From: a virus | Lineage: Duplodnaviria > Heunggongvirae > Uroviricota > Caudoviricetes | Virus record (IMG/VR): IMGVR_UViG_2623620502_000008 | Strand: one strand, 5' to 3' | DNA length: 39,935 bases | In this document: positions 1 through 18,616 of the stretch, in pieces | Layout of the letters: each line of letters starts with the position of its first letter | How positions within the stretch are numbered: position 1 is the first letter of the stretch | Notes under the pieces: model-generated | What the model was told of the DNA's origin: nothing | The model's input: only the letters and a program-made list of their open reading frames with translations | The model's database searches: none | Translations under genes and position numbers: made by a program

Positions 1-1719
1 ATGATTTTTAGGGATAGCTTGAGAGTATTACCTTATGGTCGAGTAGATAATGATTTCTTCCAGATAGAAGAAAGACGTTCATGGAATGCAGGGCGATATT
101 ATTGGTCTAATAGAAGGATTTTTGGTTATATTGGAATTACTCAATCCAGTAATAAAGAGCTGAAAGATAAGTCGGGGAGAGAGGGATTCATAAGAAACCA
201 GGCTGCAAGAGAACTGAAAACTATTATATCTAATTTGTTAACTGAACTTGCTGATAGATTTTTTGGTTCACGTTCTGATGACCGTAAAGAGCTTTTAGAA
301 CAAGTTAAGCGTGAAAAAGAGTTAAGAAAATCTGCTCAACAACAAGCTCGAAAATCAACACAAAAAAGTTTTTCAGAAGCTTTGAAGAATCAGACACCAG
401 TTCTTGATGCTTCCTTGGAGGCTGTTAAAAGGCTGAAAACTAAGCTTGATAAAACTGATGGTTCGTTAGATTTAAACTATCTTAAAATTATAGACAGTGA
501 TCTTACAAACTTAGATGCGTTGCGCAGTGAAATTAAAACGCCTATCAAACCTCCAAAACTTGGAATGTATGAAGAGAAATATAGAGACTACAGAGATAAA
601 TTTAATGAGTTCTCTGCGTATATTCTACAAATGAAGTTAGCAATTAATAAACTTGATTCTGAATTAAATAAACTTGAGCCTTCATTGTCAGCGAAAAATC
701 ACCTTGAAAAAAATCAAGGTATTATTAATTCTAAACTAACTAAGTTTAATAACACGATAGAGGAGAAGATACATTCTCTTTTAAAAAAATGGGCCGATGA
801 AATAAAGGTTGATCGAAGTGATTATTATGCTAAAACTATATCAGTTGTTGATTCAATAGATAATGATTCACAAATTGAAAATGTGTTTAATTTGCTCGAT
901 AGTTTATATGTTGAGTCAGTTGATACCCTAACTTTCAAATATCAATCAATAATAAAAGGTCTCGATAGATTATTTGAAGGTATAAACTTAGATTCAGCAT
1001 TCTCATTATCTGAAGAAGAACGCTCATATTTTGAAGAAAAAGCTAAAAGTTTAAACGCGCTTGCACAGTTAGGTATTAGTGTTGAGATAATATCTCATGA
1101 ACTTGAAGAAATGGATTCTATGGTAACCAGAGGACTAAACTCTCTTCCTACTTCTGTAAAAGAACACCCTGGTTTTTCATTGGCGTTAAATGCTCACAGA
1201 TCGCTTACTCAACAAATACGTTTCTTATCACCTTTGAAAATATCAGGTTATCAATCCAGGCAGAGAATAACTGGAAAAAATATCATGGATTATGTCCTGA
1301 AGTTCTTTGGGGAGCGTTTCGAACGGCAACGAATAACTATTGAATTTAGTGAAGAGTTTAAGCAAATCGCAATAACAGATATACCATCAAGGATCTATCC
1401 TGTTTTTACTAATATTATCAACAATGCAATGTATTGGGTCAGTCTGTCAAATAATAGGCTCATAAAGATTGGTTTTGTGAATTCTTTGGTTATCATAGCA
1501 AATTCTGGTCCGGCAATTGATACCGATGATATCCCGCGACTATTTGAACTATTTTATAGCAAAAGAGCAAATGGACATGGGGTAGGTCTGTATCTATGTC
1601 GAGAAAACCTTGCTGTTGCACATCATAAAATATGGTATTCAGAACCTGATGAAGGCGATAACTATTTAATAAAAGATGGCGCTAATTTTGTGATCCAGTT
1701 CAATGGAGTGGAGTTCTAA
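1..1719 (+). CDS. histidine-kinase-like ATPase (H-box-like motif plus GHKL/HATPase_c-like C-terminus; long coiled-coil-rich N-terminal part); possibly 5'-truncated by window edge
   Basis: ORF runs from base 1. Translation shows ISHELEEM (around nt 1081..1116) resembling the HisKA phospho-acceptor H-box, then IINNAMYW (N-box-like), DTDD...ELFYSKR and GHGVGLYLCRENL (D/G-box-like) at the C-terminus. Lys/Glu/Leu-rich heptad-like N-terminal region. Confidence 0.5.
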   Translation: MIFRDSLRVLPYGRVDNDFFQIEERRSWNAGRYYWSNRRIFGYIGITQSSNKELKDKSGREGFIRNQAARELKTIISNLLTELADRFFGSRSDDRKELLEQVKREKELRKSAQQQARKSTQKSFSEALKNQTPVLDASLEAVKRLKTKLDKTDGSLDLNYLKIIDSDLTNLDALRSEIKTPIKPPKLGMYEEKYRDYRDKFNEFSAYILQMKLAINKLDSELNKLEPSLSAKNHLEKNQGIINSKLTKFNNTIEEKIHSLLKKWADEIKVDRSDYYAKTISVVDSIDNDSQIENVFNLLDSLYVESVDTLTFKYQSIIKGLDRLFEGINLDSAFSLSEEERSYFEEKAKSLNALAQLGISVEIISHELEEMDSMVTRGLNSLPTSVKEHPGFSLALNAHRSLTQQIRFLSPLKISGYQSRQRITGKNIMDYVLKFFGERFERQRITIEFSEEFKQIAITDIPSRIYPVFTNIINNAMYWVSLSNNRLIKIGFVNSLVIIANSGPAIDTDDIPRLFELFYSKRANGHGVGLYLCRENLAVAHHKIWYSEPDEGDNYLIKDGANFVIQFNGVEF

Positions 1720-1720
1720 T

Positions 1721-3469
1721 ATGACAGTGGCAAATTATAATTCTCTTGTCCAGAAAACTTTCTGCGAAAATGCAATTCGTTCCGTTGTCATGATTGATGA
1801 CGATTTTCTGACGTATTCTGAATCAATCAGGGCGTTGAATAACGAAGTTGATTTAGACTACAACAAAATTGACTCATCTAAACGAGCCGCTACTCTTGAG
1901 AGCTTTTTTCAATCTAAGAATATGATTTGTGATGTTGACAATGGTTCTGTTAATTTCGATGTGGATCGGATTAGAAAATCAGATCTTATTATTGTAGATT
2001 ATCATCTTGATAATAATGCACCTGATAAAACACTTAAACTATTACAAGATTTGAAAGACTCCGATCATTTAAATATGATTGTAATATATACTAGAGAGAA
2101 TTTAGAAACGGTTTGGATGCAGATATCATCGACTCTCAAAGGTGCTCTGGATATCAACAGCTTGATCATTGACTACGATAATGAAGATGTCCAAAGTTAT
2201 TGGGAAGACGTTGTATTACCGAACTTAAATGATAATGGTAATAAAGCTCTCACAAGAGATGAAACAATAGCCTATATTAAAGACAGTAAGCCTTGTAGAA
2301 GAATTAAAAGATTAATACATGATGATGCTGTGTTGGAGGATCAAAAGGATAAAAACTTCATTGCAAAAATGATTGCAGAATATGCTGTGTCTAGAAATGC
2401 AATTATTTCTAGCAACACATCTGGCAATGTCATTCGGGGTGATGAAAGCGGAGTAAAATGGATTCAATGTGGTAATATCTTTGTCTCCCTATTTCATAAG
2501 GTTCAAGATGATCATGAAAACGATGGAGATAGGATTTGGCAAACTCTCAATGATTCTCTCATTGAATGGAAACCATCTTATTATCAGTTAATAAAATCTG
2601 AAATTCAGAATGCAATCGAAGCTGAGGCTTTATCTTTTGTAAATCATTTGGCTAACGATCATTACGGTCAAGCTGCGTGGTTAAATGAGATATTAAAATC
2701 AGACTCGCCTGATATTAGATGTAGAAATATTGACTTTGTATTTGGTAATTTATCAGAAGAGCTTTATCAAAGACTTAAAAATAATAATACGCTGGATGAA
2801 TTTATCAAAAGTGTTTTTGATAGCTATTCAAATGAATACGCTAACAGCGGAGTTGCTGCATTGCTCCAATATTGCTCTTCAAAAATGGATCTGCCATCAA
2901 ATAATGATACTTATCACGAAATGTATCATGCTTTAAATATGAATTTGTCTTCAAAGAATTTTGAAGATGGTCATATTTCTACTGGCACTATTTTCTTTGA
3001 TACAGAGTCGAACAAATGGTATTTATGTGTATCTGCGGCATGTGATTTGGTTCCTACTCAGGGTAACGACCCTCACCATGTAAGATTAAGTCCGCACAGG
3101 CTCATTAAAGTTCTGGAGCTTTTTAACGCCAGTCAGAGTAAAGCATTGCCATTTGCTGAACATTCGAAATATATATATGTAATGCATAAAAATCAAAGAA
3201 AATATCTCTCTATTTTCGAAGGGGATAAAACGCTTCCTGTTGTTGATTATATGGTGGTGTTGAATCATGGAACAACAGTTGATGGCGAAGAAAAAAATAT
3301 TATTTCTGCCGTGTTTTTAAGTAATATGGATGGCAACGTGCAAAATGTTCCTGTCCGACTCAAACTTAAATCTCAACTGAGAACTGGTTATGCAGAAAGA
3401 TATCAGGCTATAGCGTCTCAGTATAGCTCAAGGATTGGTGTGGATTATGTATCAATGATGCTACCATAA
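1721..3469 (+). CDS. receiver (REC)-domain protein fused to a roughly 450-aa C-terminal domain of unknown function (candidate effector)
   Basis: ATG at 1721 preceded by GGAG-rich sequence (alternative in-frame ATG at 1703). N-terminus has VVMIDDDF (acidic pocket), DLIIVDYHLD (phospho-acceptor Asp context) and MIVIYTREN (conserved Thr) in the order and spacing of CheY-like receivers. Rest shows no motif I recognise. Two-codon gap/overlap with upstream gene implies an operon. Confidence 0.5.
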   Translation: MTVANYNSLVQKTFCENAIRSVVMIDDDFLTYSESIRALNNEVDLDYNKIDSSKRAATLESFFQSKNMICDVDNGSVNFDVDRIRKSDLIIVDYHLDNNAPDKTLKLLQDLKDSDHLNMIVIYTRENLETVWMQISSTLKGALDINSLIIDYDNEDVQSYWEDVVLPNLNDNGNKALTRDETIAYIKDSKPCRRIKRLIHDDAVLEDQKDKNFIAKMIAEYAVSRNAIISSNTSGNVIRGDESGVKWIQCGNIFVSLFHKVQDDHENDGDRIWQTLNDSLIEWKPSYYQLIKSEIQNAIEAEALSFVNHLANDHYGQAAWLNEILKSDSPDIRCRNIDFVFGNLSEELYQRLKNNNTLDEFIKSVFDSYSNEYANSGVAALLQYCSSKMDLPSNNDTYHEMYHALNMNLSSKNFEDGHISTGTIFFDTESNKWYLCVSAACDLVPTQGNDPHHVRLSPHRLIKVLELFNASQSKALPFAEHSKYIYVMHKNQRKYLSIFEGDKTLPVVDYMVVLNHGTTVDGEEKNIISAVFLSNMDGNVQNVPVRLKLKSQLRTGYAERYQAIASQYSSRIGVDYVSMMLP

Positions 3470-3995: not shown

Positions 3996-5267
3996 TTAGG
4001 CTACCAGAGCATTTGATCTTTGAGCTTGAACGTAATCACTCCACCATTGCATCAAACTCTGTCGCTCTATCAGATATTCTGCACGATTGTATGCTGCGAT
4101 AATTTCATCTTTTTTCGAGTGGGCAAGCGCTGCCTCAAGAACTTCAGCTCTGAATTTACCAGACTCCTCTGCCGCTGTTCGTGCAATAGAACGCATACCG
4201 TGAGCTACAAGCTCGCCTCCGAACCCCATTCGGATGATAGCTGCGTTGGCTGTTTGTTCATGCATATGATTAAGAGGCGCTTTTATGCTGGGGAAAACCC
4301 ATTCTCTATGCCCACTTATTGATTTCATTAATTCAAGGATGCGCAAAGCTTCTTTACTCAAAGGAACTTTGTGAAGCTTTTTCATTTTCATGAAATCAGC
4401 AGGAATGTTCCAAATGCTGTTGGTTGTATCAATATCAGACCACCTTGCGCGAACGGCTTCACCCGGACGAACCCATGTCAACAATTGCCATTCAATTAGC
4501 ATACGTGTTTCCAACCGGATTGACGCATTCGTCAAAGATTCCATAAACCTTGGCAATTCGCTTGGGGGAAGGGCAGGCATATTTTGCTTTTTTGGTTTAC
4601 TGAATCTTTGACCAAGGTTGTCAGCCGGGTTGAACTCAATAAGTTCTTCAGTAGCTGCCCACCGGAAGATTTCATTCAGACGTGAAATGATACGGCGTAG
4701 AGTTTCCAATACGCCTCGTTGCTCAATAGGATCAAGGTGTTGTTTTAAGAGCTTAGGTCGGATCTCATTGATAGGGACATTACCCAGACCGGGAAAGACA
4801 TTTCTCTCTAAGCTGCGCCAGATGTCTGCTGCATGGTCTTGTGAGATACCTGATGTCTTTACCTTCTCATCTAACCATTTCCGCGCTACGGCTTGGAGAG
4901 TGTGCTCAGTAGCACTCTTTAATGCCTTCGCCTTATCGTTGTTATGGATTTGGGGATCAACACCATTTGCCAGAAAGGAGAGATATTCATCACGTAAGGC
5001 TCTGGCTCTTGCAAGGGTAAGGTGAGGATATGTCCCAAGGCTCATTTTGGTTCTTTTCTTGCTCACTGGTACTGCATACCTGAAATACCAATTTTTCTTG
5101 CCTCCTTTCGCCAAAGGAGCGATTCGTAGAATCAGACCATCACCGTCAAACAAGTTGATTTCTTTATCGGCTGGCTTGGTGCTTTTGATTTCAGTGTCAG
5201 TGAGCTTCTTAGCGATTTTTGCCATTTTGGGACCCTCGGTTTTTGGACCCTTCTTAGTGGGTCCCAT
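3996..5267 (-). CDS. tyrosine recombinase, P4-type integrase (IntA-like)
   Basis: 423-aa ORF; N-terminal LTDTEIKSTKP...LFDGDGLILRI...WYFRY arm-binding-type motif typical of P4-family integrases; C-terminal catalytic region with HGMRSIARTAA and AHS...Y. Internal ATG at 5225 (MAKIAKK...) may be the true start. Located beside the ssrA att repeat. Confidence 0.85.
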   Translation of the reverse strand: MGPTKKGPKTEGPKMAKIAKKLTDTEIKSTKPADKEINLFDGDGLILRIAPLAKGGKKNWYFRYAVPVSKKRTKMSLGTYPHLTLARARALRDEYLSFLANGVDPQIHNNDKAKALKSATEHTLQAVARKWLDEKVKTSGISQDHAADIWRSLERNVFPGLGNVPINEIRPKLLKQHLDPIEQRGVLETLRRIISRLNEIFRWAATEELIEFNPADNLGQRFSKPKKQNMPALPPSELPRFMESLTNASIRLETRMLIEWQLLTWVRPGEAVRARWSDIDTTNSIWNIPADFMKMKKLHKVPLSKEALRILELMKSISGHREWVFPSIKAPLNHMHEQTANAAIIRMGFGGELVAHGMRSIARTAAEESGKFRAEVLEAALAHSKKDEIIAAYNRAEYLIERQSLMQWWSDYVQAQRSNALVA

Positions 5268-5520: not shown

Positions 5521-6567
5521 TTAATGTTCTGTCGCCAATCTGTCGCCATTGTAGGTCAACGAAGGTTGAGCCTTCCCTTTGTTTGTTACAATTTCATCAA
5601 AGATAGCTGGATTATTATCTTTCAGTAATCTTGCTAGTATAATGATTTGCCCAGACGAGCCATCATCCTTGAATGAAAGGAAATTATCGGTAATATCAAG
5701 AATATCAATGGTAAATTTGAAGTAGGTTTCAATTGTATCGCCAAGTTCAATGCTGGACATGAAGTTAGTAATCATTTCATATCCATCAAAGTATAAAGTT
5801 GCATGTTCATTTAACTCCATGGGAGTTAGGCAAAGCATTCGATTAAGTTCGGATAAGTGTTTTTCTATTGAATGAAGAGATTGCATTTGACGGATTAAAA
5901 CTTCGGCAAACTGAGAGCCACGATTAGATGAATGTATCTTCTCTAGGTTTTTTAGTATATCAACCCAGTGATTATTTACTTCACGTATGTATTCTTTATC
6001 TGTATTTTTAGGCCGTCCCTTCTCTGGTGAGCTATTTATGAAAATATATCTATATAGATGTATTGGGTAGTTTATTTTATAACTTATCTCTTTAGTACCA
6101 TAATGACGTTCGCGTTTAATGGTTTTGTTAGGTAAATTGGTGAAATAATCAGTAACGAACTTTAAATGGCTATAGTAGCTATCAGATAGATTCTTTTGCT
6201 TGGTTTCCTCAATTTGTCGGTTTGTTTGAACTGTGCGGTGTATGTTTGCTACGACAGCAACAAATGGTATGGACAAAGAAAGTAAGGCGATAGGAAGCTT
6301 GCTAATTGCAATGAAATTATTAAAGCCCTCACTATCAAATTGAGGGGAATGTCCAAGCCAGGAAAATATACCAAAGTATATCGCTGAAAATACAGGAATC
6401 CTAAGTGATTGTTTAAATAAGTATTGACTTGTTAATGGCCTTTCATCCATGTTAAAGCCTTTTTTTGATACGCATAGATATAATTCAAGGCATATATATA
6501 AAAAATATATTATGATAAGTAAGTACGATATCCATGGGTATTGTTGGATATAGTTATTAACAAGCAC
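5521..6567 (-). CDS. membrane-anchored hypothetical protein (3 N-terminal TM helices plus about 230-aa soluble domain); prophage cargo between int and attL
   Basis: 348-aa ORF, AT-rich; start overlaps the int stop by 11 nt (same strand, suggesting translational coupling); TM segments YLLIIIYFLYICLELYLCV, IPVFSAIYFGIFSWL, IALLSLSIPFVAVVANI. Confidence 0.5.
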   Translation of the reverse strand: MLVNNYIQQYPWISYLLIIIYFLYICLELYLCVSKKGFNMDERPLTSQYLFKQSLRIPVFSAIYFGIFSWLGHSPQFDSEGFNNFIAISKLPIALLSLSIPFVAVVANIHRTVQTNRQIEETKQKNLSDSYYSHLKFVTDYFTNLPNKTIKRERHYGTKEISYKINYPIHLYRYIFINSSPEKGRPKNTDKEYIREVNNHWVDILKNLEKIHSSNRGSQFAEVLIRQMQSLHSIEKHLSELNRMLCLTPMELNEHATLYFDGYEMITNFMSSIELGDTIETYFKFTIDILDITDNFLSFKDDGSSGQIIILARLLKDNNPAIFDEIVTNKGKAQPSLTYNGDRLATEH

Positions 6568-10425: not shown

Positions 10426-11279
10426 GCACCATCCTGAAATGGGCGGGAAATAAAACCGCCATTATGTCCGAACTGAAAAAACACCTTCCTGCTGGCCCGC
10501 GACTGGTTGAACCTTTCGCGGGTTCCTGTGCTGTGATGATGGAGACGGATTACCCCAGCTATCTGGTTGCGGATATTAATCCTGATTTAATCAACCTCTA
10601 TAAAAAGGTTGCCTCTGATTGTGAATCGTTTATATCTCGCGCCAGAGTTTTATTTGAGATCGCAAACAGGGGGGTGGCTTATTACAACATAAGGCAGGAG
10701 TTTAATTACTCCACTGAAATTACTGATTTCATGAAAGCGGTATATTTCCTGTATCTCAATCGTCACGGTTACCGTGGTTTATGTCGCTATAACAAGAGCG
10801 GGCATTTCAACATTCCCTACGGTAATTATAAAAATCCGTATTTCCCTGAAAAAGAAATTCGCGCATTTGCAGAGAAAGCCCAGCGTGCAACGTTTATCTG
10901 CGCAAGCTTTGATGAAACGCTGGCGATGCTGCAGGTGGGGGATGTGGTGTATTGCGATCCGCCGTATGACGGTACGTTTTCCGGCTATCACACTGATGGT
11001 TTCACTGAAGATGACCAGTATCACCTGGCATCCGTTCTTGAACATCGGTCATCAGAAGGACATCCGGTCATTGTTTCTAACAGTGATACATCCCTGATCC
11101 GTTCGCTGTATCGCAATTTTACTCACCACTACATCAAGGCAAAACGCAGCATCGGTGTAGCAGCTGGTGAGAGTAAATCTGCAACAGAAATCATCGCTGT
11201 TTCCGGGCCGCGCTGCTGGGTGGGATTTGATCCTTCGCGTGGCGTGGATAGTTCTGCCGTGTACGGAGTGCGTGCATGA
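10422..11279 (+). CDS. dam: DNA adenine methyltransferase (Dam-like, N6-A MTase)
   Basis: Begins [11 protein letters not shown] (AdoMet-binding motif of Dam-class enzymes) and contains the catalytic DPPY tetrapeptide ([10 protein letters not shown]). Confidence 0.85.
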
Positions 11280-13690
11280 GCCATGCTGATATGAACAACT
11301 GCAGCGGCTTTAACAAGGTCGCCGCAGCATTCTCATGGAACAGCCCGAAAAAGGCCATTAACCCTTATCTGGACCCGGCGGAAGTTGCGCCGGTTTCTGC
11401 GCTTTCAAACCTGATCACTCTGTACGCTACCGATAACGAGCAGGAACAACTGCGCCGCGAGGCACTGAGTGATCAGGTCTGGGAGCGTTATTTCTTTAAT
11501 GAATCCCGTGATCCTGTCCAACGCGAAATGGAGCAGGATAAGCTCATTAGCCGGGCAAAGATGGCGCATGAGCAGCAGCGTTTTAATCCAGACATGGTCA
11601 TTCTGGCTGACGTCAACGCCCAGCCTTCCCATATCAGCAAGCCGCTGATGCAACGTATTGAATATTTCAGCAGCCTGGGCAGGCCAAAGGCTTATTCCCG
11701 CTATTTGCGTGAGACGATTAAGCCATGTCTGGAACGACTGGAGCATGTACGCGACAGCCAGCTATCTGCATCTTTTCGTTTTATGGCAAGCCATGAAGGG
11801 CTGGACGGTCTGCTGATCCTGCCTGAAATGAGTCAGGATCAGGTGAAACGCCTGTCTACCCTTGTCGCTGCGCATATGAGCATGTGTCTTGATGCCGCTT
11901 GTGGTGATTTGTACGCCTCCGATGATGTTAAGCCAGAAGAAATCCGCAAGACATGGGAAAAGGTGGCTGCAGAAACCCTGCGACTGGATGTCATACCGCC
12001 TGCGTTTGAGCAACTCCGCCGGAAAAGAAACCGCCGCAAACCTGTGCCTTATGAACTCATTCCGGGTTCGCTGGCGCGTATGCTGTGCGCCGACTGGTGG
12101 TATCGGAAATTATGGAAGATGCGTTGCGAATGGCGGGAAGAGCAGTTGCGTGCTGTCTGCCTGGTCAGCAAAAAAGCATCTCCCTATGTCAGCTATGAAG
12201 CCGTGATGCATAAACGTGAGCAGCGCCGTAAGTCGCTGGAGTTTTTCCGTTCTCATGAACTGGTGAACGAAGACGGCGACACGCTGAACATGGAGGATGT
12301 GGTAAACGCCAGCAGCAGCAACCCGGCGCATCGCCGCAACGAGATGATGGCCTGTGTTAAAGGCCTGGAGCTTATCGCGGAAATGCGTGGTGACTGCGCC
12401 GTTTTCTACACCATCACCTGTCCGTCACGTTTCCATTCCACGCTAAATAACGGCAGGCCAAACCCGACCTGGACAAACGCGACGGTAAGACAAAGCAGCG
12501 ATTATCTGGTCGGCATGTTTGCTGCATTTCGTAAGGCTATGCACAAAGCCGGGTTGCGCTGGTATGGCGTGCGGGTGGCTGAGCCGCATCATGACGGCAC
12601 AGTTCACTGGCACCTGTTGTGTTTCATGCGCAAAAAAGACCGCCGCGCCATTACTGCATTGTTGCGTAAGTTTGCCATCCGAGAAGACCGCGAGGAGCTG
12701 GGCAATAACACGGGGCCACGCTTTAAGTCTGAGCTGATAAACCCGCGCAAAGGAACGCCGACAAGCTACATTGCGAAATATATCAGTAAGAATATTGACG
12801 GGCGTGGTCTGGCTGGCGAGATCAGTAAGGAAACGGGTAAATCCCTGCGTGATAACGCTGAATACGTTAATGCCTGGGCGTCTCTGCATCGTGTTCAGCA
12901 ATTCCGCTTCTTTGGCATTCCGGGGCGTCAGGCTTACCGTGAACTGCGATTGCTGGCTGGTCAGGCGGCAAGGCAACAGGGTGACAAAAAAGCAGGTGCG
13001 CCGGTACTGGATAACCCGCGCCTTGATGCCATCCTGGCTGCTGCTGATGCTGGTTGTTTTGCCACCTACATCATGAAGCAGGGCGGCGTACTGGTTCCCC
13101 GCAAATATCACCTCATCAGAACCGCTTATGAAATCAACGAAGAGCCAACCGCCTATGGCGATCACGGTATTCGTATTTATGGCATCTGGTCACCCATTGC
13201 AGAGGGCAAGATCTGCACTCATGCAGTGAAGTGGAAAATGGTTCGTAAGGCCGTTGACGTTCAGGAGGCGGCAGCCGACCAGGGCGCTTGCGCCCCTTGG
13301 ACTCGTGGCAATAACTGTCCCCTTGCTGAAAATTTGAACCAACAAGGGAAAGACAAATCAGCTGATGGGGATACCAGGACGGACATTACCCGCATGGATG
13401 ACAAGGAGTTGCACTATTACCTGCACAGTATGAGCAAAAAAGAGCGCCGGGAACTGGCTGCAAGGTTACGCCTGGTGAAACCGAAACGGCGTAAAGACTA
13501 CAAACAGCGAATTACAGACCATCAGCGACAGCAGCTCGTCTATGAACTGAAGTCCAGAGGATTTGATGGCAGCGAGAAAGAGGTCGATTTACTCCTTCGC
13601 GGCGGCAGTATTCCGTCAGGAGCAGGCCTGCGTATCTTCTATCGGAACCAGCGTTTGCAGGAAGATGATAAGTGGCGAAACCTGTATTAA
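11276..13690 (+). CDS. A: replication initiation protein A (P2 gpA-type rolling-circle endonuclease)
   Basis: 804-aa ORF; HUH-type motif (VHWHLLCF) and downstream tyrosine motif (YIAKYISKN) as in P2 A; position after the early region. Confidence 0.85.
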
Positions 13691-13782
13691 TTACGCGGGT
13701 TAACAATTCGTGCTCTTAATAATACCAGGCATATCAGGCTGATGAACGTAAAAAAACGTTTTACATCAGTATGATTATTATA

Positions 13783-13802
13783 TACTGTAAATATAAACAG
13801 TG
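13783..13802. promoter_or_regulatory. LexA box (SOS operator) upstream of the Tum/DinI-like module
   Basis: TACTGTAAATATAAACAGTG = CTGT-N8-ACAG palindrome matching the LexA consensus, about 40 bp upstream of the ORF starting at 13844. Confidence 0.6.
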
Positions 13803-13843
13803 GTTATGCATACAGTATTGCTTGTGGTGTCATAGGAGGAAAG

Positions 13844-14032
13844 ATGCAGGACTATTTTTTGGAGTCTTTGAAGCTCCAGCGCATTGATTTTTTTCTTAAG
13901 CTTGTAGCGGCTAGTGAGTGTAGTGATGAAGAGAAGGGGCTGGCTTTGCAGTGGGTTTCTGAACTGACAGATGAACTCATGGCAAAAATCAGAACCCACG
14001 AATACAACCGCTCAATGGATGTCATCAGCTGA
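13844..14032 (+). CDS. small protein, possible Tum-like antirepressor (N-terminal portion equivalent)
   Basis: 62-aa ORF with aggagga RBS; LexA box upstream; followed by DinI-like ORF, the arrangement of 186-like SOS-inducible antirepressor modules. Confidence 0.4.
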   Translation: MQDYFLESLKLQRIDFFLKLVAASECSDEEKGLALQWVSELTDELMAKIRTHEYNRSMDVIS

Positions 14033-14042
14033 GGTGACTTTT

Positions 14043-14276
14043 ATGCGCATTGAAATAATGATCGATAAAGAGCAGAAGATTAGCCAGTCTACCCTGGATG
14101 CCCTTGAATCCGAGCTTTACCGCAATCTGCGCCCCCTGTATCCCAAAACGGTAATTCGTATCCGCAAAGGTAGCTCTAACGGTGTGGAACTGACCGGACT
14201 GCAACTGGACGAAGAAAGAAAACAAGTGCTGAAAATTATGCAGAAGGTGTGGGAAGACGACTGCTGGCTGCATTGA
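14043..14276 (+). CDS. DinI-family protein (Tum C-terminal-like / DinI-like)
   Basis: 77-aa ORF starting MRIEIMIDKEQ... and ending ...WEDDCWLH, resembling DinI-family proteins (MRIEV... N-terminus, acidic aromatic C-terminus); gaggtg RBS upstream. Confidence 0.7.
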   Translation: MRIEIMIDKEQKISQSTLDALESELYRNLRPLYPKTVIRIRKGSSNGVELTGLQLDEERKQVLKIMQKVWEDDCWLH

Positions 14277-14391
14277 TAGGTTTCGTTTGTAATGAGTCAT
14301 GTTTTTTGAGTCCGATAGTAGACAGCTAGAGGGATAAATGATTAATAGATAGATTAAACATAGTGATGGGCGTAAAATCGCGCGCATTTTA

Positions 14392-15306
14392 TTGGCAACG
14401 GATCTGAACTCAATGGCGGATAAGACTCAATCAGTAAGTATTGTGTATCAAGGCAAAGCTCTCGACGATCATAAGATGGATATTCTTTCGTTTGCGAAAA
14501 GTTTGCAGGGGCTAGGTGAGGCTATCTACTCTGCAAATGAGATTGTAAACGGAGGGCGAGACATTGAAGTTAACGTTGACGCTGAATTGATAGCCGGTTC
14601 CTTTGGGTTTGATATTGAGGTTGTACAACATCTAGCTAATGCTAAAGATGTTGTACAAATTTTAGGTTTGTCAGCCATTCCTTTAGCCGTTGGCGGTGCT
14701 ACAGTTTTAGAGGTTCTCAAGAAGCTTAACGGGCGTAAGATCGACATAGTCGAGAAAGCTAACGGTAGTGACAAAGTTAAGCTGAAAGTCGATGGTGAAG
14801 AGATTGTTTGCTCTGAAGATGTCGAAAAAATCGTTAATGCCCCAGAGATTCGTAAGGCTGTTGACGCGTTTGTCAGACAGCCTCTGTTACAAGATGGTAT
14901 CGACAATTTTGTGGTAAAAAAATCGCGCACCTCTAAGAAAGAAATCCTCAAAATTCATAAAGATGAGGCAGAAGAGTTTAAGTCGCCAAAAGTTCTCTTT
15001 GAAACCAAAGAAGAAGTTGACGAATTTGAAACAACCGTGACATTCGTTTCGGCGCATACTGACAAAAAAAGTGGCTGGCGTGTTGAGTTTGGCGGTGAAA
15101 AGCGCAATGTCAGAATGGAAGATAATGAGTTCATCAAGCTTGTTACTGGACCAGACGCCCCCAAAATTTTTGGCGAATTGTTTGCTGTGAAGATGAAGAA
15201 AATTGTGAAAGATTCCGGTGGCCAGGTAGACGAAAAGTTATCGATCATCAAAGTGGGTCGACACTTTGCCGCCAAAGATAGAAAAATAAAACCTGATGCG
15301 GATTAA
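14392..15306 (+). CDS. hypothetical soluble protein (cargo; first gene of 3-gene cluster)
   Basis: 304-aa Lys/Glu-rich ORF with no motif I recognise (alternative start 14413); at the position of P2 tin/old accessory genes (after A, before cos). Confidence 0.45.
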   Translation: MATDLNSMADKTQSVSIVYQGKALDDHKMDILSFAKSLQGLGEAIYSANEIVNGGRDIEVNVDAELIAGSFGFDIEVVQHLANAKDVVQILGLSAIPLAVGGATVLEVLKKLNGRKIDIVEKANGSDKVKLKVDGEEIVCSEDVEKIVNAPEIRKAVDAFVRQPLLQDGIDNFVVKKSRTSKKEILKIHKDEAEEFKSPKVLFETKEEVDEFETTVTFVSAHTDKKSGWRVEFGGEKRNVRMEDNEFIKLVTGPDAPKIFGELFAVKMKKIVKDSGGQVDEKLSIIKVGRHFAAKDRKIKPDAD

Positions 15307-15308
15307 AA

Positions 15309-15572
15309 ATGTCTATAGATATTAGTGTGTTAGGATGGTTGGGGCTGCTTGTTGCAGCTCCAGCTATATTTATAGGTGCTAGAGTGGCTATACGTAGCCT
15401 GCTCGATCGAGTTATTGTCGAAACAAAAGTTTCTATCACTTATACTGATGCAAACAAAAATGTCTATAAAACAAATATTTATATAAACAATGATGATGAG
15501 TTAATAAAGCTCATCGATGATATAGCAGAGAAAAATAAGCGTGAGAGGAAGGAGTCAGCCTCTCATGCCTGA
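15309..15572 (+). CDS. small membrane protein (single N-terminal TM helix), hypothetical
   Basis: 87-aa ORF starting 3 nt after previous stop; TM segment LGWLGLLVAAPAIFIGARVAI. Confidence 0.4.
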   Translation: MSIDISVLGWLGLLVAAPAIFIGARVAIRSLLDRVIVETKVSITYTDANKNVYKTNIYINNDDELIKLIDDIAEKNKRERKESASHA

Positions 15573-15981
15573 ACAAAAGAAAACAAGCGGTAAAGCAGTC
15601 GGTGTTACAGGTGGCGGCGGTGTAGGCCTTTTCCTAATAAAGCTGGCTAGCTTCATTACAGATCCAACATGGAAAGACCTTTACATTGCTTCAATACCGA
15701 TGGTGTCAATTCTTTTAAGCGAAGTTTTTACTTTTGCATGGACGATTTATGCTGTTGATCCGCAAGAAATCAAACTGAAAAGGCGGTTGAAGGCTCTGAA
15801 GAAGCAAGCCGAAGCAGTTTTAAATGCACCATCGTCCCCTGTTTCTCCAGAAATGCGAGAGAAAGCGCAGGCTCGTTACGACGTGATCTGTGGAATTGAA
15901 ATGGGAATTTACCCCCTCTCAATTGTAAATACGCTAGATGGAAAAGTATCCCCCACAGCGCAAACGCCGGACGTTAAATAG
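15565..15981 (+). CDS. small membrane protein (2 predicted TM helices), hypothetical
   Basis: ATG at 15565 with aggaaggag RBS, overlapping previous stop; Gly-rich then hydrophobic segments (GVGLFLIKLASFI; IPMVSILLSEVFTFAWTIYAV). Confidence 0.4.
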   Translation: MPEQKKTSGKAVGVTGGGGVGLFLIKLASFITDPTWKDLYIASIPMVSILLSEVFTFAWTIYAVDPQEIKLKRRLKALKKQAEAVLNAPSSPVSPEMREKAQARYDVICGIEMGIYPLSIVNTLDGKVSPTAQTPDVK

Positions 15982-16044
15982 CAGTTTCTACTTTGCATGT
16001 CTATGCTGCATGAAATCGCATGATCGTTTGAGGATCGTTTTTGC

Positions 16045-16073
16045 AAAAGCCCGCCAGAACTGGCGGGCTTTTG
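16045..16073. terminator. rho-independent terminator-like hairpin (A-tract/GC stem/T-tract)
   Basis: aaaagcccgccag-aa-ctggcgggcttttg, perfect 9-bp GC-rich stem flanked by A and T runs, downstream of the 3-gene cluster. Confidence 0.5.
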
Positions 16074-16117
16074 CGTAGAGCATGCATCTGCATGAAAACC
16101 ACTACATAAAGCGGGCA

Positions 16118-16136
16118 GGCGTGGCGGGGATACGAG
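16118..16136. other. candidate cos (cohesive-end) site of the prophage
   Basis: ggcgtggcggggatacgag; first 13 nt match my recollection of the P2/186 cohesive-end sequence (GGCGTGGCGGGGA...); located in the non-coding stretch between the late-accessory region and the portal side. Confidence 0.3.
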
Positions 16137-16224
16137 CGCGCGCATTGAGTTAAAATTTCTTGAGTTGATGAAAATAAGATGTATTTTAATTTGGCACAGA
16201 AAAACCTAATAACTCACAAGGATA

Positions 16225-17160
16225 ATGATAATAATGCAAATAGTTTCCATCATAAATTATAAAGGTGGCGTTGGTAAAACAACAGTTACGTCTAATTTAG
16301 CCGCTGAATTAGCATTCCGAGGAAAGAATGTTTTAGTTCTGGATATGGATGCTCAGGCAAGCCTGACATTTTCGTTTCTAACTCCCGATTATTGGGATGA
16401 ACATCTTAAAAATGAAAGGACCATTAAAAACTGGTTTGATTGTATTAGTCAGGGAGAGCAAACAATGCCTCTTTCGACTCTAAGAGTACGACCTGAACCT
16501 GTTAATAGTAGATTTGATAGAAAAGGTGGATGTTTGGATTTAATATCTTCCCACCTCGGGTTGATAAATGTTGATCTTGAGCTTGCGACTCTTCTAGGAG
16601 GGGCTAGCCCCAGTCAAACTCAAAAAAAATATCTTAAAGTTCATGGTAAACTTAGAGAGGAACTTCAAATACTAGCTGACGAAATGAATTATGATGTTGT
16701 TTTAATTGATTGTCCACCTAACTTTAATATCGTAACAAAAAATGCTTTGATTGCATCAGATAAGATTTTGATACCAGCAAAACCTGATTATTTGTCAACG
16801 CTAGGTATTGATTATTTAAAAAGAAGCGTAGATTCTCTAGTTACAGACTATAATTTCTATGCCGATAAAGATGAAGATTATGAAAGGGTATCTCCTGAGA
16901 TTCTCGGAGTAGTTTTTACTATGATTCAAATTCATTCAGAACAACCTATTGCCGCGCAAAGACAGTATATTGCGCAGACAAAACGTCTAGGTGTTCCCGT
17001 ATTTGATGCTATTTTTAGGGAGAATAAAACTATCTTTGCTGATGCCCCTAGAGATGGAATTCCTGTAGCATTAATTGGCTACTCGCATTCAACTCACTCT
17101 TCTATTGTAGGAGAGATTGAGGATTTTGTTGATGAATTCCTTCAAAAGATTGGAGAATAA
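16225..17160 (+). CDS. ParA/MinD/Soj-family P-loop ATPase (deviant Walker A)
   Basis: 311-aa ORF; NYKGGVGKTTVTSNLA deviant Walker A near N-terminus (likely start at ATG 16234), DMDAQ (A'-like) and VLIDCPP (Walker B-like); strongly AT-rich. Confidence 0.7.
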   Translation: MIIMQIVSIINYKGGVGKTTVTSNLAAELAFRGKNVLVLDMDAQASLTFSFLTPDYWDEHLKNERTIKNWFDCISQGEQTMPLSTLRVRPEPVNSRFDRKGGCLDLISSHLGLINVDLELATLLGGASPSQTQKKYLKVHGKLREELQILADEMNYDVVLIDCPPNFNIVTKNALIASDKILIPAKPDYLSTLGIDYLKRSVDSLVTDYNFYADKDEDYERVSPEILGVVFTMIQIHSEQPIAAQRQYIAQTKRLGVPVFDAIFRENKTIFADAPRDGIPVALIGYSHSTHSSIVGEIEDFVDEFLQKIGE

Positions 17161-17162
17161 AA

Positions 17163-17558
17163 GTGAGTAAAGCTAAAACTTTAACTGTGCTATTTCGTGA
17201 ATTACAAGATGCAGTTCTTGAACTCAATGAAGGGGAATTGGAAAAAATTATTTCAGGCGAGTATCAATTCGTCCTTAAGGTAGTTAAAAAACGTAATAGT
17301 ACTGGTGCAAAGATAAGTTCAGTAGATAATTTTAGCTATAACGAATTGCTTGTTTTACTTAACCAGTGTGAGTCAAGAGAACAAGGTTGCGAGCTTTTGT
17401 CGCGTGAGCTTAAGACTAAATCTGAGTTTGAAAAATTCGCTCGTCATGTCGAGGTCGCTGTAATGAAAAGCGATAAACTCGAGAAAATTAGAGATAATAT
17501 TATTGAGTCGACAGTAGGTGCTAAACTCCGTTCTGATGCTATTCAGAATAAAAAGTAA
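17163..17558 (+). CDS. hypothetical protein, partner of ParA-like ATPase (helical, charged)
   Basis: 131-aa ORF with GTG start 2 nt after ParA-like stop, ggagaa RBS; no recognisable motif. Confidence 0.45.
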   Translation: MSKAKTLTVLFRELQDAVLELNEGELEKIISGEYQFVLKVVKKRNSTGAKISSVDNFSYNELLVLLNQCESREQGCELLSRELKTKSEFEKFARHVEVAVMKSDKLEKIRDNIIESTVGAKLRSDAIQNKK

Positions 17559-17587: not shown

Positions 17588-18616
17588 TCATAGTTCATAG
17601 TTCGTAAAATTAATGACATTTTCGCCAAGCCACCTATTTAACTCTTCTAATCGTTTCTGAAGAGGCAATAGTTCATTACGTACAAAAACCTTACTAGCCT
17701 TCTCCACATCCCCAAAACCCCCAACATTATTCGGCATAATCCCCATCATCTGTGGCGGAACACGATGCGCGGCCATCATGTCATCACGACTCACGTTCTT
17801 GATGTTCAGAAATTCATCTTTCGCTGCGACTTCTGACAACGGGATGATCTGAAGTCCGTCCTTTTTGCCGTTAGGCGAGTACATAAACAGATTTCGGAAG
17901 TTGCCAGGGCCTTTGGCGCTTTTCATCGCATTGCGGAGGTTGTTCACATCCTCCTGGTTCTGCGCGGCATCGGTCATGTACATGATGAAGCCAGCATGAC
18001 TACCGTTAATGTAATACTTCCGGCGGAACAGCGTGGCGGACTCGTTGAGCAAAGCGGATGGGATGGCAGAAAGATAGCCGGGCAGGCCGTAGATCTCCTG
18101 ATTAATATCCGGTTCCATCAGATGAAAAATGCTGCCTTTCGTGAACTGATACGGCTGGGTTGTCATACCGTATTGCACAAACCAGTAGGTATCCAGGTCT
18201 AACCCGCGTCGGGTGTATTTCGCCAGGGCAGGTTCAAGGGCGATCACTTCACCGAAGCGGTTCGAGCGTTTCTCCAGGTAGGCGTTACCAAATACCAGAT
18301 AGTCCTGCACAAAACGTGAAAACGCCTGCTGGCTGAGCAGCGGATGAGGGATGTAGGTGCTGGTCAGTATGTTGCACTTTACGGCAATCGGTGAGCTGTG
18401 GTGCACGGCGGCGCGAAAGGTTCGCGCCAGCCCGTCGAAACTCACTGGTGGCTCATACCAGCGGTCCATCTGTACGCATTCCACATAGTCCAGTAATTCG
18501 CGGCGGTCCAGAACAGGAACGGGATCACCGAAGCTGAATGCTTCGGCTGAAGTCTGGTTTTTATGCAGGATCTGATTCGTCGCCGCAGCGCGGTTTTTCT
18601 TACTCTTTCCCATCAA
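17588..18616 (-). CDS. Q: portal protein (P2 gpQ-like)
   Basis: 342-aa ORF, overlaps terminase start by 4 nt; position and size as P2 Q. Confidence 0.85.
   Translation of the reverse strand: MMGKSKKNRAAATNQILHKNQTSAEAFSFGDPVPVLDRRELLDYVECVQMDRWYEPPVSFDGLARTFRAAVHHSSPIAVKCNILTSTYIPHPLLSQQAFSRFVQDYLVFGNAYLEKRSNRFGEVIALEPALAKYTRRGLDLDTYWFVQYGMTTQPYQFTKGSIFHLMEPDINQEIYGLPGYLSAIPSALLNESATLFRRKYYINGSHAGFIMYMTDAAQNQEDVNNLRNAMKSAKGPGNFRNLFMYSPNGKKDGLQIIPLSEVAAKDEFLNIKNVSRDDMMAAHRVPPQMMGIMPNNVGGFGDVEKASKVFVRNELLPLQKRLEELNRWLGENVINFTNYEL

What the first reader, a model, noticed from the sequence alone, without database searches (positions are those of the whole stretch)
14392..15981. Three-gene cargo cluster (soluble 304-aa protein plus two small membrane proteins) at the P2 tin/old-equivalent position
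Between the A/Tum-DinI module and the candidate cos lie three tightly coupled ORFs (gaps of 3 nt and an overlap): a Lys/Glu-rich soluble protein with no recognisable catalytic motif, an 87-aa single-TM protein and a ~138-aa two-TM protein with a Gly-rich segment, ending in a strong terminator. In P2 the equivalent interval carries the tin and old exclusion genes, so position favours a phage-exclusion function. The soluble-component-plus-small-membrane-protein layout resembles abortive-infection modules, but I can assign it to no named family.
Basis: partly seen in the sequence, partly recalled or inferred. Interest (0 to 1): 0.65.

Follow-up and report, generated by a model that had tools for sequence, protein, structure and literature searches.

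The report
Three-gene gp29-type prophage defence cassette
The three genes are a real, rare, mobile cargo cassette in the variable slot of a P2/186-like E. coli prophage, and its large protein belongs to the family of mycobacteriophage MichelleMyBell gp29, half of a proven anti-phage system, so it is most likely an untested Gram-negative, three-gene version of that defence.

Summary
Window 14275-15993 is a discrete 1.7-kb cassette that fills the variable slot between the DinI/Tum gene and the conserved cos block of a 186/P2-like prophage (E. coli VG12A2). It carries three coupled genes under purifying selection: a 297-aa soluble protein (ATG 14413, not TTG 14392), an 87-aa 1-TM protein and a 138-aa 2-TM protein.

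It is accessory: 8 of 5,426 complete E. coli genomes carry it, against 1,282 with the flanks. It is already listed, untested, as system #37 in Rousset et al. 2022.

The large protein is a full-length member of NCBIfam NF053583 ('LAPAL'), which matches PADLOC candidate PDC-S42. So is MichelleMyBell gp29 (hhalign 98.7%, E 4e-16), the soluble half of the validated gp29-gp30 prophage defence.

The same three-gene layout recurs in at least 10 lineages: P2-like, lambdoid, Mu-like and PM2-like prophages, Pseudomonas megaplasmids, and a metagenomic contig where it neighbours a SLATT-plus-reverse-transcriptase gene pair. That rules out a structural role.

The two membrane partners show no homology to gp30. 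The best reading is an abortive-infection-type exclusion module and a new variant of a known kind. The mechanism is unknown for the whole family. Interest is moderate.

The parts
14275..15993 (+). Variable cargo cassette (leader plus three genes) between the conserved DinI flank and the conserved cos block
   Evidence: BLASTN against an ST131 P2-like prophage that lacks this cargo. Homology runs 13700-14274 and 15994-16152, with only 82 bp between the flanks in that strain.
14368..14412 (+). Conserved 5' leader that travels with the cassette. It includes the inverted repeat TAAAAT-N7-ATTTTA (14373-14391), a possible -10 element or operator.
   Evidence: Alignment of upstream regions from the E. 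coli, Pantoea, Serratia and Aeromonadaceae copies. Conservation starts about 45 nt before the ATG even where the upstream context differs. The function of the repeat is not shown.
14413..15306 (+). Gene 1: 297-aa soluble protein of the MichelleMyBell gp29 / NF053583 'LAPAL' / PDC-S42 family. Three domains are predicted, the C-terminal one (about residues 199-285) with an OB-fold-like topology. An alternative TTG start lies at 14392.
15309..15572 (+). Gene 2: 87-aa single-pass membrane protein. It has an N-terminal TM segment (about residues 5-27) and a cytoplasmic tail predicted by the positive-inside rule (conserved KVTxTY ... DDIAEK).
   Evidence: Hydropathy. Phobius result in Rousset Table S5B. 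Homologues lie directly after every gene 1 homologue of this clade.
15565..15981 (+). Gene 3: 138-aa two-TM hairpin protein. TM1 is Gly-rich (VGxxGGGGxG), TM2 covers about residues 39-64, and a basic helical C-terminal tail follows. It overlaps gene 2 by 8 nt.
   Evidence: Hydropathy: only TM2 passes the threshold. Phobius reports 2 TM. Alignments. AF2 model is all-helical with low confidence, pLDDT 64.
16037..16081 (.). GC-rich hairpin (a bidirectional terminator-like element) in the phage backbone. It is the likely transcription stop for whatever cargo sits in the slot.
   Evidence: dG -31.8 kcal/mol, z -6.9. It lies in the conserved block 15994-16152 shared with prophages carrying other cargo.
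16118..16136 (.). cos-like 19-mer GGCGTGGCGGGGATACGAG (phage backbone, context)
   Evidence: Read directly from the sequence. The same motif family is adjacent to the hotspot in the P2/P4 clones listed by Rousset et al.. Cleavage was not tested.
13785..13800 (+). LexA-box-like CTGTAAATATAAACAG upstream of orf 13844-14032 and DinI/Tum 14043-14276 (context). It is a possible source of SOS-induced read-through into the cassette.
   Evidence: It is the only CTGT-N8-ACAG match in the window, though 37 of 100 shuffled sequences also gave at least one match, so the pattern alone is not significant. No stable terminator lies between DinI and gene 1 (z -1.3). Read-through is an inference.

Best explanation
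The cluster is a self-contained, horizontally mobile anti-phage exclusion module. It is carried as a moron in the cos-proximal hotspot of a 186/P2-like prophage, and it is a three-gene Gram-negative relative of the mycobacteriophage MichelleMyBell gp29-gp30 defence.

Shown here:
- The three genes are real and coupled.
- They form a discrete, rare cassette.
- The same three-gene layout recurs in unrelated prophage types, on plasmids and next to defence-type genes.
- Gene 1 is a full-length member of the gp29 family.
- Genes 2 and 3 are small inner-membrane proteins whose soluble tails are predicted to face the cytoplasm.

Inferred:
- In the lysogen, the soluble gp29-like protein is held at or near the membrane by the two small proteins.
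- Infection by a sensitive phage is sensed by the gp29-like protein. The C-terminal OB-fold-like domain, which carries the family-invariant W222, D237 and F240, is the best candidate sensor.
- The activated complex then arrests or kills the cell before progeny form. The most likely route is loss of inner-membrane integrity, through the Gly-rich 2-TM protein, through the hydrophobic segment of gene 1 (residues about 78-105), or both.

Family members without membrane partners exist, and gp29 is reported to be toxic. The gp29-like protein is therefore probably both sensor and core effector, with the membrane proteins acting as interchangeable restraints or co-effectors. Expression probably comes from the cassette's own leader, with possible extra read-through from the LexA-controlled Tum/DinI promoter.
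For: Discrete, rare cassette. Rousset et al. list the identical three proteins as system #37, with 104 of 18,150 P2 A-Q loci.

Purifying selection on all three ORFs.

Family membership:
- Gene 1 scores 191.6 bits on NF053583 and MMB gp29 scores 181.4 bits (cut-off 60).
- Both hit PADLOC PDC-S42.
- hhalign of the family profile against MMB gp29: 98.7%, E 4.2e-16, over 269 columns.

MMB gp29-gp30 is reported as a prophage defence with abortive-infection behaviour. It lowers Tweety plating by 4-5 logs, and consists of a toxic gp29 and a membrane gp30.

The three-gene layout is conserved down to 25% identity and occurs in many contexts:
- P2-like hotspots of Serratia and Pantoea.
- A Klebsiella prophage, transcribed against its neighbours.
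- A Proteus lambdoid prophage, directly after the CI-like repressor, and also in a tail module.
- A Mu-like head module.
- A PM2-like Vibrio element, next to its integrase.
- Pseudomonas megaplasmid pBM413.
- A metagenomic contig, next to SLATT plus reverse transcriptase and a DUF6035 protein.
- Further lineages.

Only 1 of 50,697 sequenced phage genomes encodes a detectable relative.

The C-terminal domain has OB-fold topology. Membrane topology of genes 2 and 3.
Against: No phenotype exists for this cluster. Rousset et al. catalogued it but did not clone it.

I could not read the primary MichelleMyBell paper (Dedrick et al. 2017, not held). The gp29-gp30 phenotype therefore rests on secondary descriptions.

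The membrane partners have no detectable homology to gp30, and there are two of them rather than one. The parallel is architectural only.

NCBI names the family 'putative phage structural protein', and some copies do sit inside head or tail gene blocks.

No convincing sigma-70 promoter was found upstream of gene 1 on the + strand.
Confidence: 0.62

Rival explanations
1. It is a superinfection-exclusion module that acts at the envelope. The two small inner-membrane proteins, with the soluble protein as an adaptor, block DNA entry or periplasmic transit of incoming phages, in the manner of T4 Imm/Sp or P22 SieA. The host cell is not killed.
For: Two of the three products are small inner-membrane proteins. 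The neighbouring slot holds a SieB-family gene in a sister prophage. Prophage morons of this size often act at entry (established knowledge).
Against: The homologous MichelleMyBell system is described as allowing adsorption and DNA injection while blocking phage production. Family members without any membrane partner exist, so the conserved core is the cytoplasmic protein. gp29 is reported to be toxic, which fits a suicide effector better than a passive block.
Confidence: 0.12
2. It is a toxin-antitoxin-like addiction or stabilisation module. Its main role is to keep the prophage or plasmid in the lineage, with a toxic gp29-like protein neutralised by labile membrane partners. Any anti-phage effect would be incidental or absent.
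For: gp29 is reported to be toxic in the absence of its partner. The module occurs on Pseudomonas megaplasmids. One solo member sits beside a hok/gef gene. The genes are tightly translationally coupled.
Against: The MichelleMyBell prophage system does give a strong heterotypic anti-phage phenotype. The module sits in slots known to hold defence cargo and next to defence-type genes. Toxin-antitoxin and abortive-infection functions are not mutually exclusive.
Confidence: 0.08
3. It is a moron with another lysogenic-conversion role, for example an envelope, stress or colonisation function or modulation of lysis timing, unrelated to phage exclusion.
For: The P2 A-Q hotspot also holds non-defence cargo such as partition systems and cytolethal distending toxin. 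Five of the eight additional P2-hotspot systems tested by Rousset et al. showed no defence. The biochemical activity is unknown.
Against: Gene 1 is in the same curated family as a protein of an experimentally supported defence system. PADLOC independently flagged the family as a defence candidate.
Confidence: 0.13
4. Gene 1 is a phage structural or morphogenetic protein, as the NCBIfam name says, and the small proteins are assembly or lysis accessories.
For: The NF053583 product name is 'LAPAL motif-containing putative phage structural protein'. Some copies lie within tail or head gene blocks (L008, L010).
Against: It is present in only 8 of about 1,282 E. coli genomes that carry this prophage backbone. 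It is found in myovirus, siphovirus, Mu-like and PM2-like (a different viral realm) prophages, on non-phage megaplasmids and on a chromosomal contig. Only 1 of 50,697 isolated phage genomes has a relative. It has no structural similarity to virion proteins. MMB gp29 lies in the lysogenically variable centre of a Cluster N phage, next to the integrase.
Confidence: 0.03

Closest known systems
MichelleMyBell (MMB) gp29-gp30 prophage defence of Cluster N mycobacteriophages (DefenseFinder 'MMB_gp29_gp30'; Dedrick et al. 2017)
   Same: The large protein is a full-length homologue in the same NCBIfam and PADLOC family: 297 aa against 310 aa, with shared GSF, W, and D..F invariants. It is followed immediately by overlapping small membrane protein gene(s). 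It lies in a prophage accessory slot near the integrase or cos end. The operon is small, with no recognisable enzymatic domain.
   Different: This cluster has two partner genes (87 aa with 1 TM, and 138 aa with 2 TM and long cytoplasmic tails) instead of one 67-aa 2-TM protein. Neither shows detectable homology to gp30. The host is Gram-negative. Identity to gp29 is about 21%. No phenotype has been measured.
PADLOC phage-defence candidate PDC-S42 / NCBIfam NF053583 'LAPAL motif-containing putative phage structural protein' / phrog_3243
   Same: Gene 1 matches all three profiles over its full length. The family is large: 3,613 clusters at 50% identity, all about 280-320 aa.
   Different: PDC-S42 is defined as a single-gene candidate, and solo members do exist. 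Here, and in at least 10 other lineages, the protein is part of a conserved three-gene operon. The NCBIfam name 'structural' is contradicted by the family's distribution and by MMB gp29.
System #37 of Table S5B in Rousset et al. 2022 (P2 A-Q hotspot catalogue)
   Same: The three protein sequences are identical, the locus is the same, and the table carries the same note of 2 TM and 1 TM.
   Different: It is only a catalogue entry with no Pfam annotation, no name and no test. It is not the validated 'hp + hp + hp' system (Rst_3HP), whose proteins are roughly 225-350 aa and unrelated.
Lambda RexAB and the actinophage CarolAnn gp44/gp43 and Sbash gp30/gp31 systems
   Same: The logic is the same: a roughly 280-370-aa cytoplasmic protein plus a small membrane protein, expressed from a prophage and causing abortive infection by membrane depolarisation. 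The Proteus copy sits directly after the CI-like repressor gene, as rexAB does after cI.
Rst_2TM_1TM_TIR of P2-like phage AC1 (Rousset et al. 2022)
   Same: It occupies the same hotspot and has the same three-gene composition: a 2-TM protein, a 1-TM protein and a roughly 300-aa soluble protein. It was validated as a defence against lambda, LF82_P8 and P2.
   Different: The soluble protein there is a TIR enzyme, and the gene order is reversed. The membrane proteins show no homology to genes 2 and 3.
P2 old and tin
   Same: They are positional equivalents in the A-Q interval and are exclusion genes.
   Different: There is no sequence relationship. No AAA_15/21, TOPRIM or other Pfam domains are found in the cluster.

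Membership tests
MMB gp29-gp30 defence system | Large subunit homologous to MichelleMyBell gp29 | tested here: met
   hhalign of the family profile against gp29: 98.7%, E 4.2e-16, 269 columns. Both proteins exceed the NF053583 cut-off (191.6 and 181.4 bits against 60). Both hit PDC-S42.
MMB gp29-gp30 defence system | Partner homologous to gp30 (67 aa, 2 TM) | tested here: not met
   hhalign of the gene 2 and gene 3 family alignments against gp30 gives probability 0.1-0.2%. Short TM proteins are hard to compare, so very remote homology cannot be excluded.
MMB gp29-gp30 defence system | Small membrane protein gene immediately downstream of and overlapping the gp29-type gene | tested here: met
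   Gene 2 starts 2 nt after gene 1, and gene 3 overlaps gene 2 by 8 nt. In MMB, gp30 overlaps the 3' end of gp29. Here there are two such genes rather than one.
MMB gp29-gp30 defence system | Lysogenically expressed, heterotypic anti-phage (abortive-infection-like) phenotype; gp29 toxic without its partner | not testable with these tools
   This needs plaque, toxicity and RNA-seq experiments. The phenotype of the reference system is known to me only through secondary papers.
PADLOC PDC-S42 (single-gene candidate) | Match to the PDC-S42 HMM | tested here: met
   PDLC05015, E 7.8e-44, residues 12-295.
PADLOC PDC-S42 (single-gene candidate) | Stand-alone gene | tested here: not met
   A three-gene operon is conserved in at least 10 lineages. 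Solo members are a different subgroup.
Lambda RexAB-like exclusion | RexA/DUF4747-type soluble protein | tested here: not met
Lambda RexAB-like exclusion | Four-TM RexB-type channel partner | tested here: not met
   The partners have 1 TM and 2 TM segments.
Rst_3HP (Rousset 'hp + hp + hp') | Homology to the three cloned proteins of pFR109 | tested here: not met
   The pFR109 proteins are much longer (roughly 225-350 aa) with unrelated sequences. Our sequences are absent from the table of tested systems. The comparison was by inspection, not by alignment.
Rst_2TM_1TM_TIR (phage AC1) | TIR soluble protein and homologous 2-TM and 1-TM partners | tested here: not met
   No TIR or other Pfam domain in gene 1. 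hhalign of the partners gives probability 0.07-0.34%.
Phage structural protein (NCBIfam product name) | Conserved presence and fixed position among virion genes of one phage lineage | tested here: not met
   8 of 5,426 genomes carry it, against 1,282 with the backbone. Positions are different in five phage types, and it also occurs on plasmids. Only 1 of 50,697 phage genomes has a relative.
Moron (autonomous accessory transcription unit of a prophage) | Discrete insertion between conserved backbone genes, with its own upstream non-coding leader and a downstream terminator | tested here: inconclusive
   The discrete insertion and the conserved leader are shown. The terminator hairpin is in the backbone. 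No clear promoter was identified.

The most novel reading that the evidence does not exclude
gp29/LAPAL/PDC-S42 proteins may form a very large, structurally unsolved class of self-sufficient sensor-effector proteins, with an OB-fold-like sensor and a latent membrane-active or otherwise toxic N-terminal module. Different lineages would have independently recruited non-homologous small membrane proteins to them: none, a gp30-type 2-TM protein, or the 1-TM plus 2-TM pair seen here. On this reading the E. coli cassette is the tractable model for a widespread abortive-infection mechanism that is unrelated to RexAB and spans Actinobacteria, Proteobacteria, two viral realms and plasmids.
Probability: 0.25. 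Interest if true: 0.65.

Novelty: new variant of a known kind. Interest (0 to 1): 0.5.

Why it matters
The result links four annotations that had not been connected: an untested entry in the P2 hotspot catalogue, a PADLOC 'candidate', an NCBI family labelled 'structural', and an experimentally supported mycobacteriophage defence.

If the inference holds, the gp29-type defence is not confined to Actinobacteria. It would be a large family, about 3,600 clusters at 50% identity, spread over many kinds of mobile element. It would also have an E. coli representative that is easy to clone and test.

The interchangeable membrane partners give a natural experiment for asking what the small membrane proteins do in soluble-plus-membrane abortive-infection systems.

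It also argues that the NCBIfam product name should be revised, and that PDC-S42 should be modelled as a multi-gene system in part of the family.

Tried and rejected
Leads tested and rejected:
- **Rst_3HP.** I first suspected the cluster was the validated three-hypothetical-protein system of Rousset et al. The cloned pFR109 proteins are different, and our sequences are absent from the tested-systems table.
- **RexA.** No relation was found.
- **Old and Tin.** No shared domains.
- **AC1 2TM+1TM+TIR partners.** No homology.
- **gp30 against genes 2 and 3.** No homology.
- **Intrinsic terminator between DinI and gene 1.** None found.

Structure searches:
- Foldseek against PDB gave nothing below E 1e-3.
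- BFVD gave only uncharacterised viral proteins.
- afdb50 was not available.
- A PDB sequence-profile search gave only a chance-level match to MS2 coat protein.

Literature searches:
- Searches for PDC-S42, 'LAPAL motif', DUF7946 and the WP accessions found no papers.
- The primary MichelleMyBell paper is not held.
- 'gp29-gp30' in Georjon et al. refers to the Phrann ppGpp-synthetase-type system. MMB gp29 has no Pfam hit at all, so no RelA/SpoT domain, and belongs to the LAPAL family.

Searches that added little:
- The search for related loci with the diverse alignment failed. With the close alignment it gave only 4 loci.
- The second and third word-index protein searches added little.
- The Pfam DUF7946 match is sub-threshold, 16.8 bits against a cut-off of 27, and covers only the N-terminal 35 residues. 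16 of 56 family members hit it weakly. I did not use it.
- The promoter scan found no convincing + strand promoter upstream of gene 1.
Full report
**1. Where the window comes from**

The window is identical to E. coli VG12A2 (NZ_CP128592.1) and spans a 186/P2-like prophage. Its genes run in this order:
- integrase, CI, CII, Fil and Dam;
- the replication endonuclease A (11276-13690);
- a small ORF (13844-14032) and a DinI/Tum-like gene (14043-14276; DinI Pfam 8.4e-21);
- the three ORFs of the finding;
- a conserved non-coding block;
- a ParA-family gene and a 131-aa gene;
- the portal gene Q on the minus strand (17588-18613).

**2. The observation**

The three ORFs exist, and PGAP annotates them as 297, 87 and 138 aa. 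The ATG at 14413 is the likely start of gene 1, because all homologues begin there.

Gene 2 starts 2 nt after the gene 1 stop. Gene 3 (ATG 15565) overlaps gene 2 by 8 nt.

All three are under purifying selection. Against the Pantoea copy, dN/dS is 0.06, 0.20 and 0.10, with dS between 0.4 and 1.3. They are therefore real genes and not chance ORFs.

Gene 1 has no transmembrane segment apart from a moderately hydrophobic stretch at about residues 78-105. Gene 2 has one N-terminal TM segment. Gene 3 has a Gly-rich first hydrophobic segment, which is below my hydropathy threshold, and a clear second one. Rousset et al. obtained 1 TM and 2 TM for these same sequences with Phobius.

The 'strong terminator' is a hairpin at 16037-16081 (dG -31.8 kcal/mol, z -6.9).

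**3. The cluster is a discrete cassette in a hotspot**

I compared the window with an ST131 P2-like prophage that lacks this cargo. Homology holds for 13700-14274 and again for 15994-16152, and only 82 bp separate the two blocks in that strain. The cassette is therefore 14275-15993.

The hairpin and the cos-like 19-mer (16118-16136) lie in the conserved backbone block. The terminator is thus a property of the slot, not of the cargo.

To the right of cos there is a second variable slot. It holds:
- ParA plus a 131-aa protein in this window;
- SieB in strain PEC148;
- DprA plus a phosphoribosyltransferase in ST131;
- an AAA_15/21 ATPase in Pantoea.

The cassette is rare. Eight of 5,426 complete E. 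coli genomes carry it, all at 99% identity or more, whereas 1,282 genomes match the flanks.

**4. It has been catalogued before, but never tested**

Rousset et al. 2022 (PMC9122126) showed that the A-Q interval of P2-like phages is a defence hotspot that holds old and tin in P2 itself. Their Table S5A lists our three WP accessions.

The sequences are absent from their table of cloned systems. Their validated 'hp + hp + hp' system (Rst_3HP) has different, larger proteins.

**5. Family of the large protein**

Pfam gives nothing above threshold. Gene 1 does match three other profiles over its full length:
- PADLOC candidate PDC-S42, 7.8e-44;
- phrog_3243, 1.6e-59;
- NCBIfam NF053583, 'LAPAL motif-containing putative phage structural protein', 2e-56 and 191.6 bits against a cut-off of 60.

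A profile search of 1.84 billion representative proteins found 3,613 clusters at E of 1e-3 or better (552 at 1e-30 or better). Those listed are almost all 280-330 aa long. This is a large single-architecture family.

The decisive lead was an annotation note, 'MMB_gp29_gp30__gp29', on the only phage record with a tblastn match. That record is a 14-kb PM2-like temperate Vibrio element.

I fetched mycobacteriophage MichelleMyBell (KF986246). Its gp29 is 310 aa, and it is followed by an overlapping gp30 of 67 aa with 2 TM segments. Three independent profile methods place gp29 and gene 1 in one family:
- hhalign of our family profile against gp29 gives 98.7% probability, E 4.2e-16, over 269 columns. 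It aligns the GSF motif, the invariant Trp and the D..F motif.
- gp29 scores 181.4 bits on NF053583.
- gp29 scores 1.6e-16 on PDC-S42.

**6. What is known about the reference system**

I could not read Dedrick et al. 2017. Secondary sources state the following:
- The MichelleMyBell prophage system behaves like abortive infection. Adsorption and injection proceed, but phage production fails (PMC6426606).
- It lowers plating of phage Tweety by 4-5 orders of magnitude, and Tweety gp54 counteracts it (PMC8549241).

The 'gp29-gp30' of Georjon et al. is the ppGpp-synthetase-type Phrann system. MMB gp29 has no Pfam domain of any kind.

**7. The three-gene layout is conserved and mobile**

A gene 1 homologue followed by a 1-TM protein of about 80-90 aa and a 2-TM protein of about 113-161 aa occurs in the following places:

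| Host or source | Context |
|---|---|
| Serratia, Pantoea | P2-like prophages, same slot |
| Klebsiella | Prophage; cluster transcribed against its neighbours, between an immunity gene and SSB/primase |
| Proteus | Lambdoid prophage, directly after the CI-like repressor; also inside a tail module |
| Metagenome assembly (host not determined) | Mu-like head module |
| Xenorhabdus, Providencia, an Aeromonadaceae MAG | Not examined further |
| Vibrio | PM2-like element, next to its integrase |
| Pseudomonas | Megaplasmid pBM413 |
| Metagenomes | Relatives at 37%, 33% and 25% identity |

The most distant of these (25% identity) sits between a DUF6035 protein and a SLATT plus reverse-transcriptase pair.

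The partner proteins are homologous across this clade but diverge quickly, down to about 17-21% identity. Two more distant family members are solo genes, one of them beside hok/gef at the end of a prophage.

The family therefore has at least three partner states: none, a gp30-type protein, and the 1-TM plus 2-TM pair. Neither of our partners resembles gp30 or the 2-TM and 1-TM proteins of the AC1 TIR system found in the same hotspot.

**8. Structure**

The AF2 model of gene 1 is usable (pLDDT 80.5, pTM 0.61) and shows three parts:
- **N-terminal part (1 to about 110).** It holds the helix that corresponds to the 'LAPAL' motif of other members, the GSFG hairpin and the hydrophobic stretch.
- **Middle alpha/beta part (about 112-190).**
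- **C-terminal part (about 199-285).** Its strand-helix order (three strands, a helix, two strands) is the OB-fold order.

The family-wide invariants W222, D237 and F240 lie in the OB-like domain. That makes it the best candidate for ligand or trigger recognition, but this is an inference.

The gene 3 model is all-helical with low confidence.

**9. Expression**

About 45 nt of leader are conserved upstream of gene 1 even where the upstream context differs. The leader includes the inverted repeat TAAAAT-N7-ATTTTA at 14373-14391. No clear sigma-70 promoter was found there.

A LexA-box-like sequence (13785-13800) precedes the small ORF and DinI/Tum. It is the only such match in the window, but the bare pattern is not significant on its own, since 37 of 100 shuffles gave at least one match. 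No stable terminator separates DinI from gene 1. SOS-induced read-through is therefore possible, but not shown.

**10. Interpretation**

The best-supported reading is a prophage-borne exclusion module of the gp29-gp30 type. A cytoplasmic sensor and toxic protein would work with small inner-membrane proteins and cause abortive infection. I give this confidence 0.62.

The rival readings are:
- an entry-level superinfection block;
- a pure addiction module;
- another lysogenic-conversion function;
- a structural role.

The structural role implied by the NCBIfam name is contradicted by the family's rarity, its scattered positions, its presence on plasmids and in a different viral realm, and its near absence from isolated phage genomes.

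**11. Novelty and interest**

The cluster is not categorically new. Its large protein belongs to a known, experimentally supported family, and the locus itself is already in a published catalogue. Three things are new:
- the link between these separate annotations;
- the conserved pair of partners that are not homologous to gp30;
- the evidence that the family and its three-gene form are widespread in Proteobacteria.

I rate it a new variant of a known kind, with interest 0.5. The mechanism of the whole family remains open, and this E. coli cassette is a convenient system in which to study it.

Noticed in passing
window 16234-17558 (+): A second cargo unit lies between the cos block and the portal gene. 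It consists of a ParA-family ATPase (AAA_31 7.6e-36; phrog_164 ParA-like) and a tightly coupled 131-aa protein with no family. Sister prophages carry SieB, DprA plus PRTase, or an AAA_15/21 ATPase in the same slot. It could be a partition system or another defence pair. The PADLOC hits cover only the P-loop region.
   Followed up: partly
window 1-3469 (+), with integrase at 3996-5225 (-): A low-GC (0.29-0.37) two-gene unit: a HATPase_c plus HEF_HK kinase-like protein and a Response_reg_2 (PF19192) protein. It sits next to an integrase with an Arm-DNA-bind_3 N-terminal domain, so a separate integrative island abuts the P2-like prophage. There is no PADLOC hit.
   Followed up: partly
window 5521-6450 (-): A 309-aa hypothetical protein lies between the two integrase genes. 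It has a weak PADLOC '2TM effector' match (8e-5) and no Pfam hit.
   Followed up: no
NCBIfam NF053583 (applies to window 14413-15306): The curated product name is 'putative phage structural protein'. It is probably wrong, because MichelleMyBell gp29, a defence protein, scores 181 bits on the model and the family sits in accessory slots and on plasmids.
   Followed up: yes
window 14373-14391: An inverted repeat TAAAAT-CGCGCGC-ATTTTA lies in the conserved leader 22 nt upstream of the gene 1 ATG. It is strongly conserved in the Pantoea copy and only partly in Serratia and Aeromonadaceae. It could be an operator or a pair of divergent -10 elements.
   Followed up: partly
window 13760-13800: A promoter-like TTTACA ... 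TATATA overlaps a LexA-box-like CTGTAAATATAAACAG upstream of the small ORF and the DinI/Tum gene. This resembles the SOS-controlled tum promoter of phage 186 (comparison from my own knowledge). It is the only such box in the window, although 37 of 100 shuffles also gave a match.
   Followed up: partly
NZ_CM132257.1 (E. coli 22AR0118), hit H89: One of the eight E. coli copies matches only query positions 265-1590, so gene 1 is truncated at its 5' end there. The cause was not examined.
   Followed up: no
L016 478-6089 (metagenomic contig SRR19733620_44053): The most distant three-gene relative is flanked by a DUF6035/DUF7830 protein on one side and a SLATT_5 protein plus a reverse transcriptase on the other. 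The contig looks like a small defence island.
   Followed up: partly
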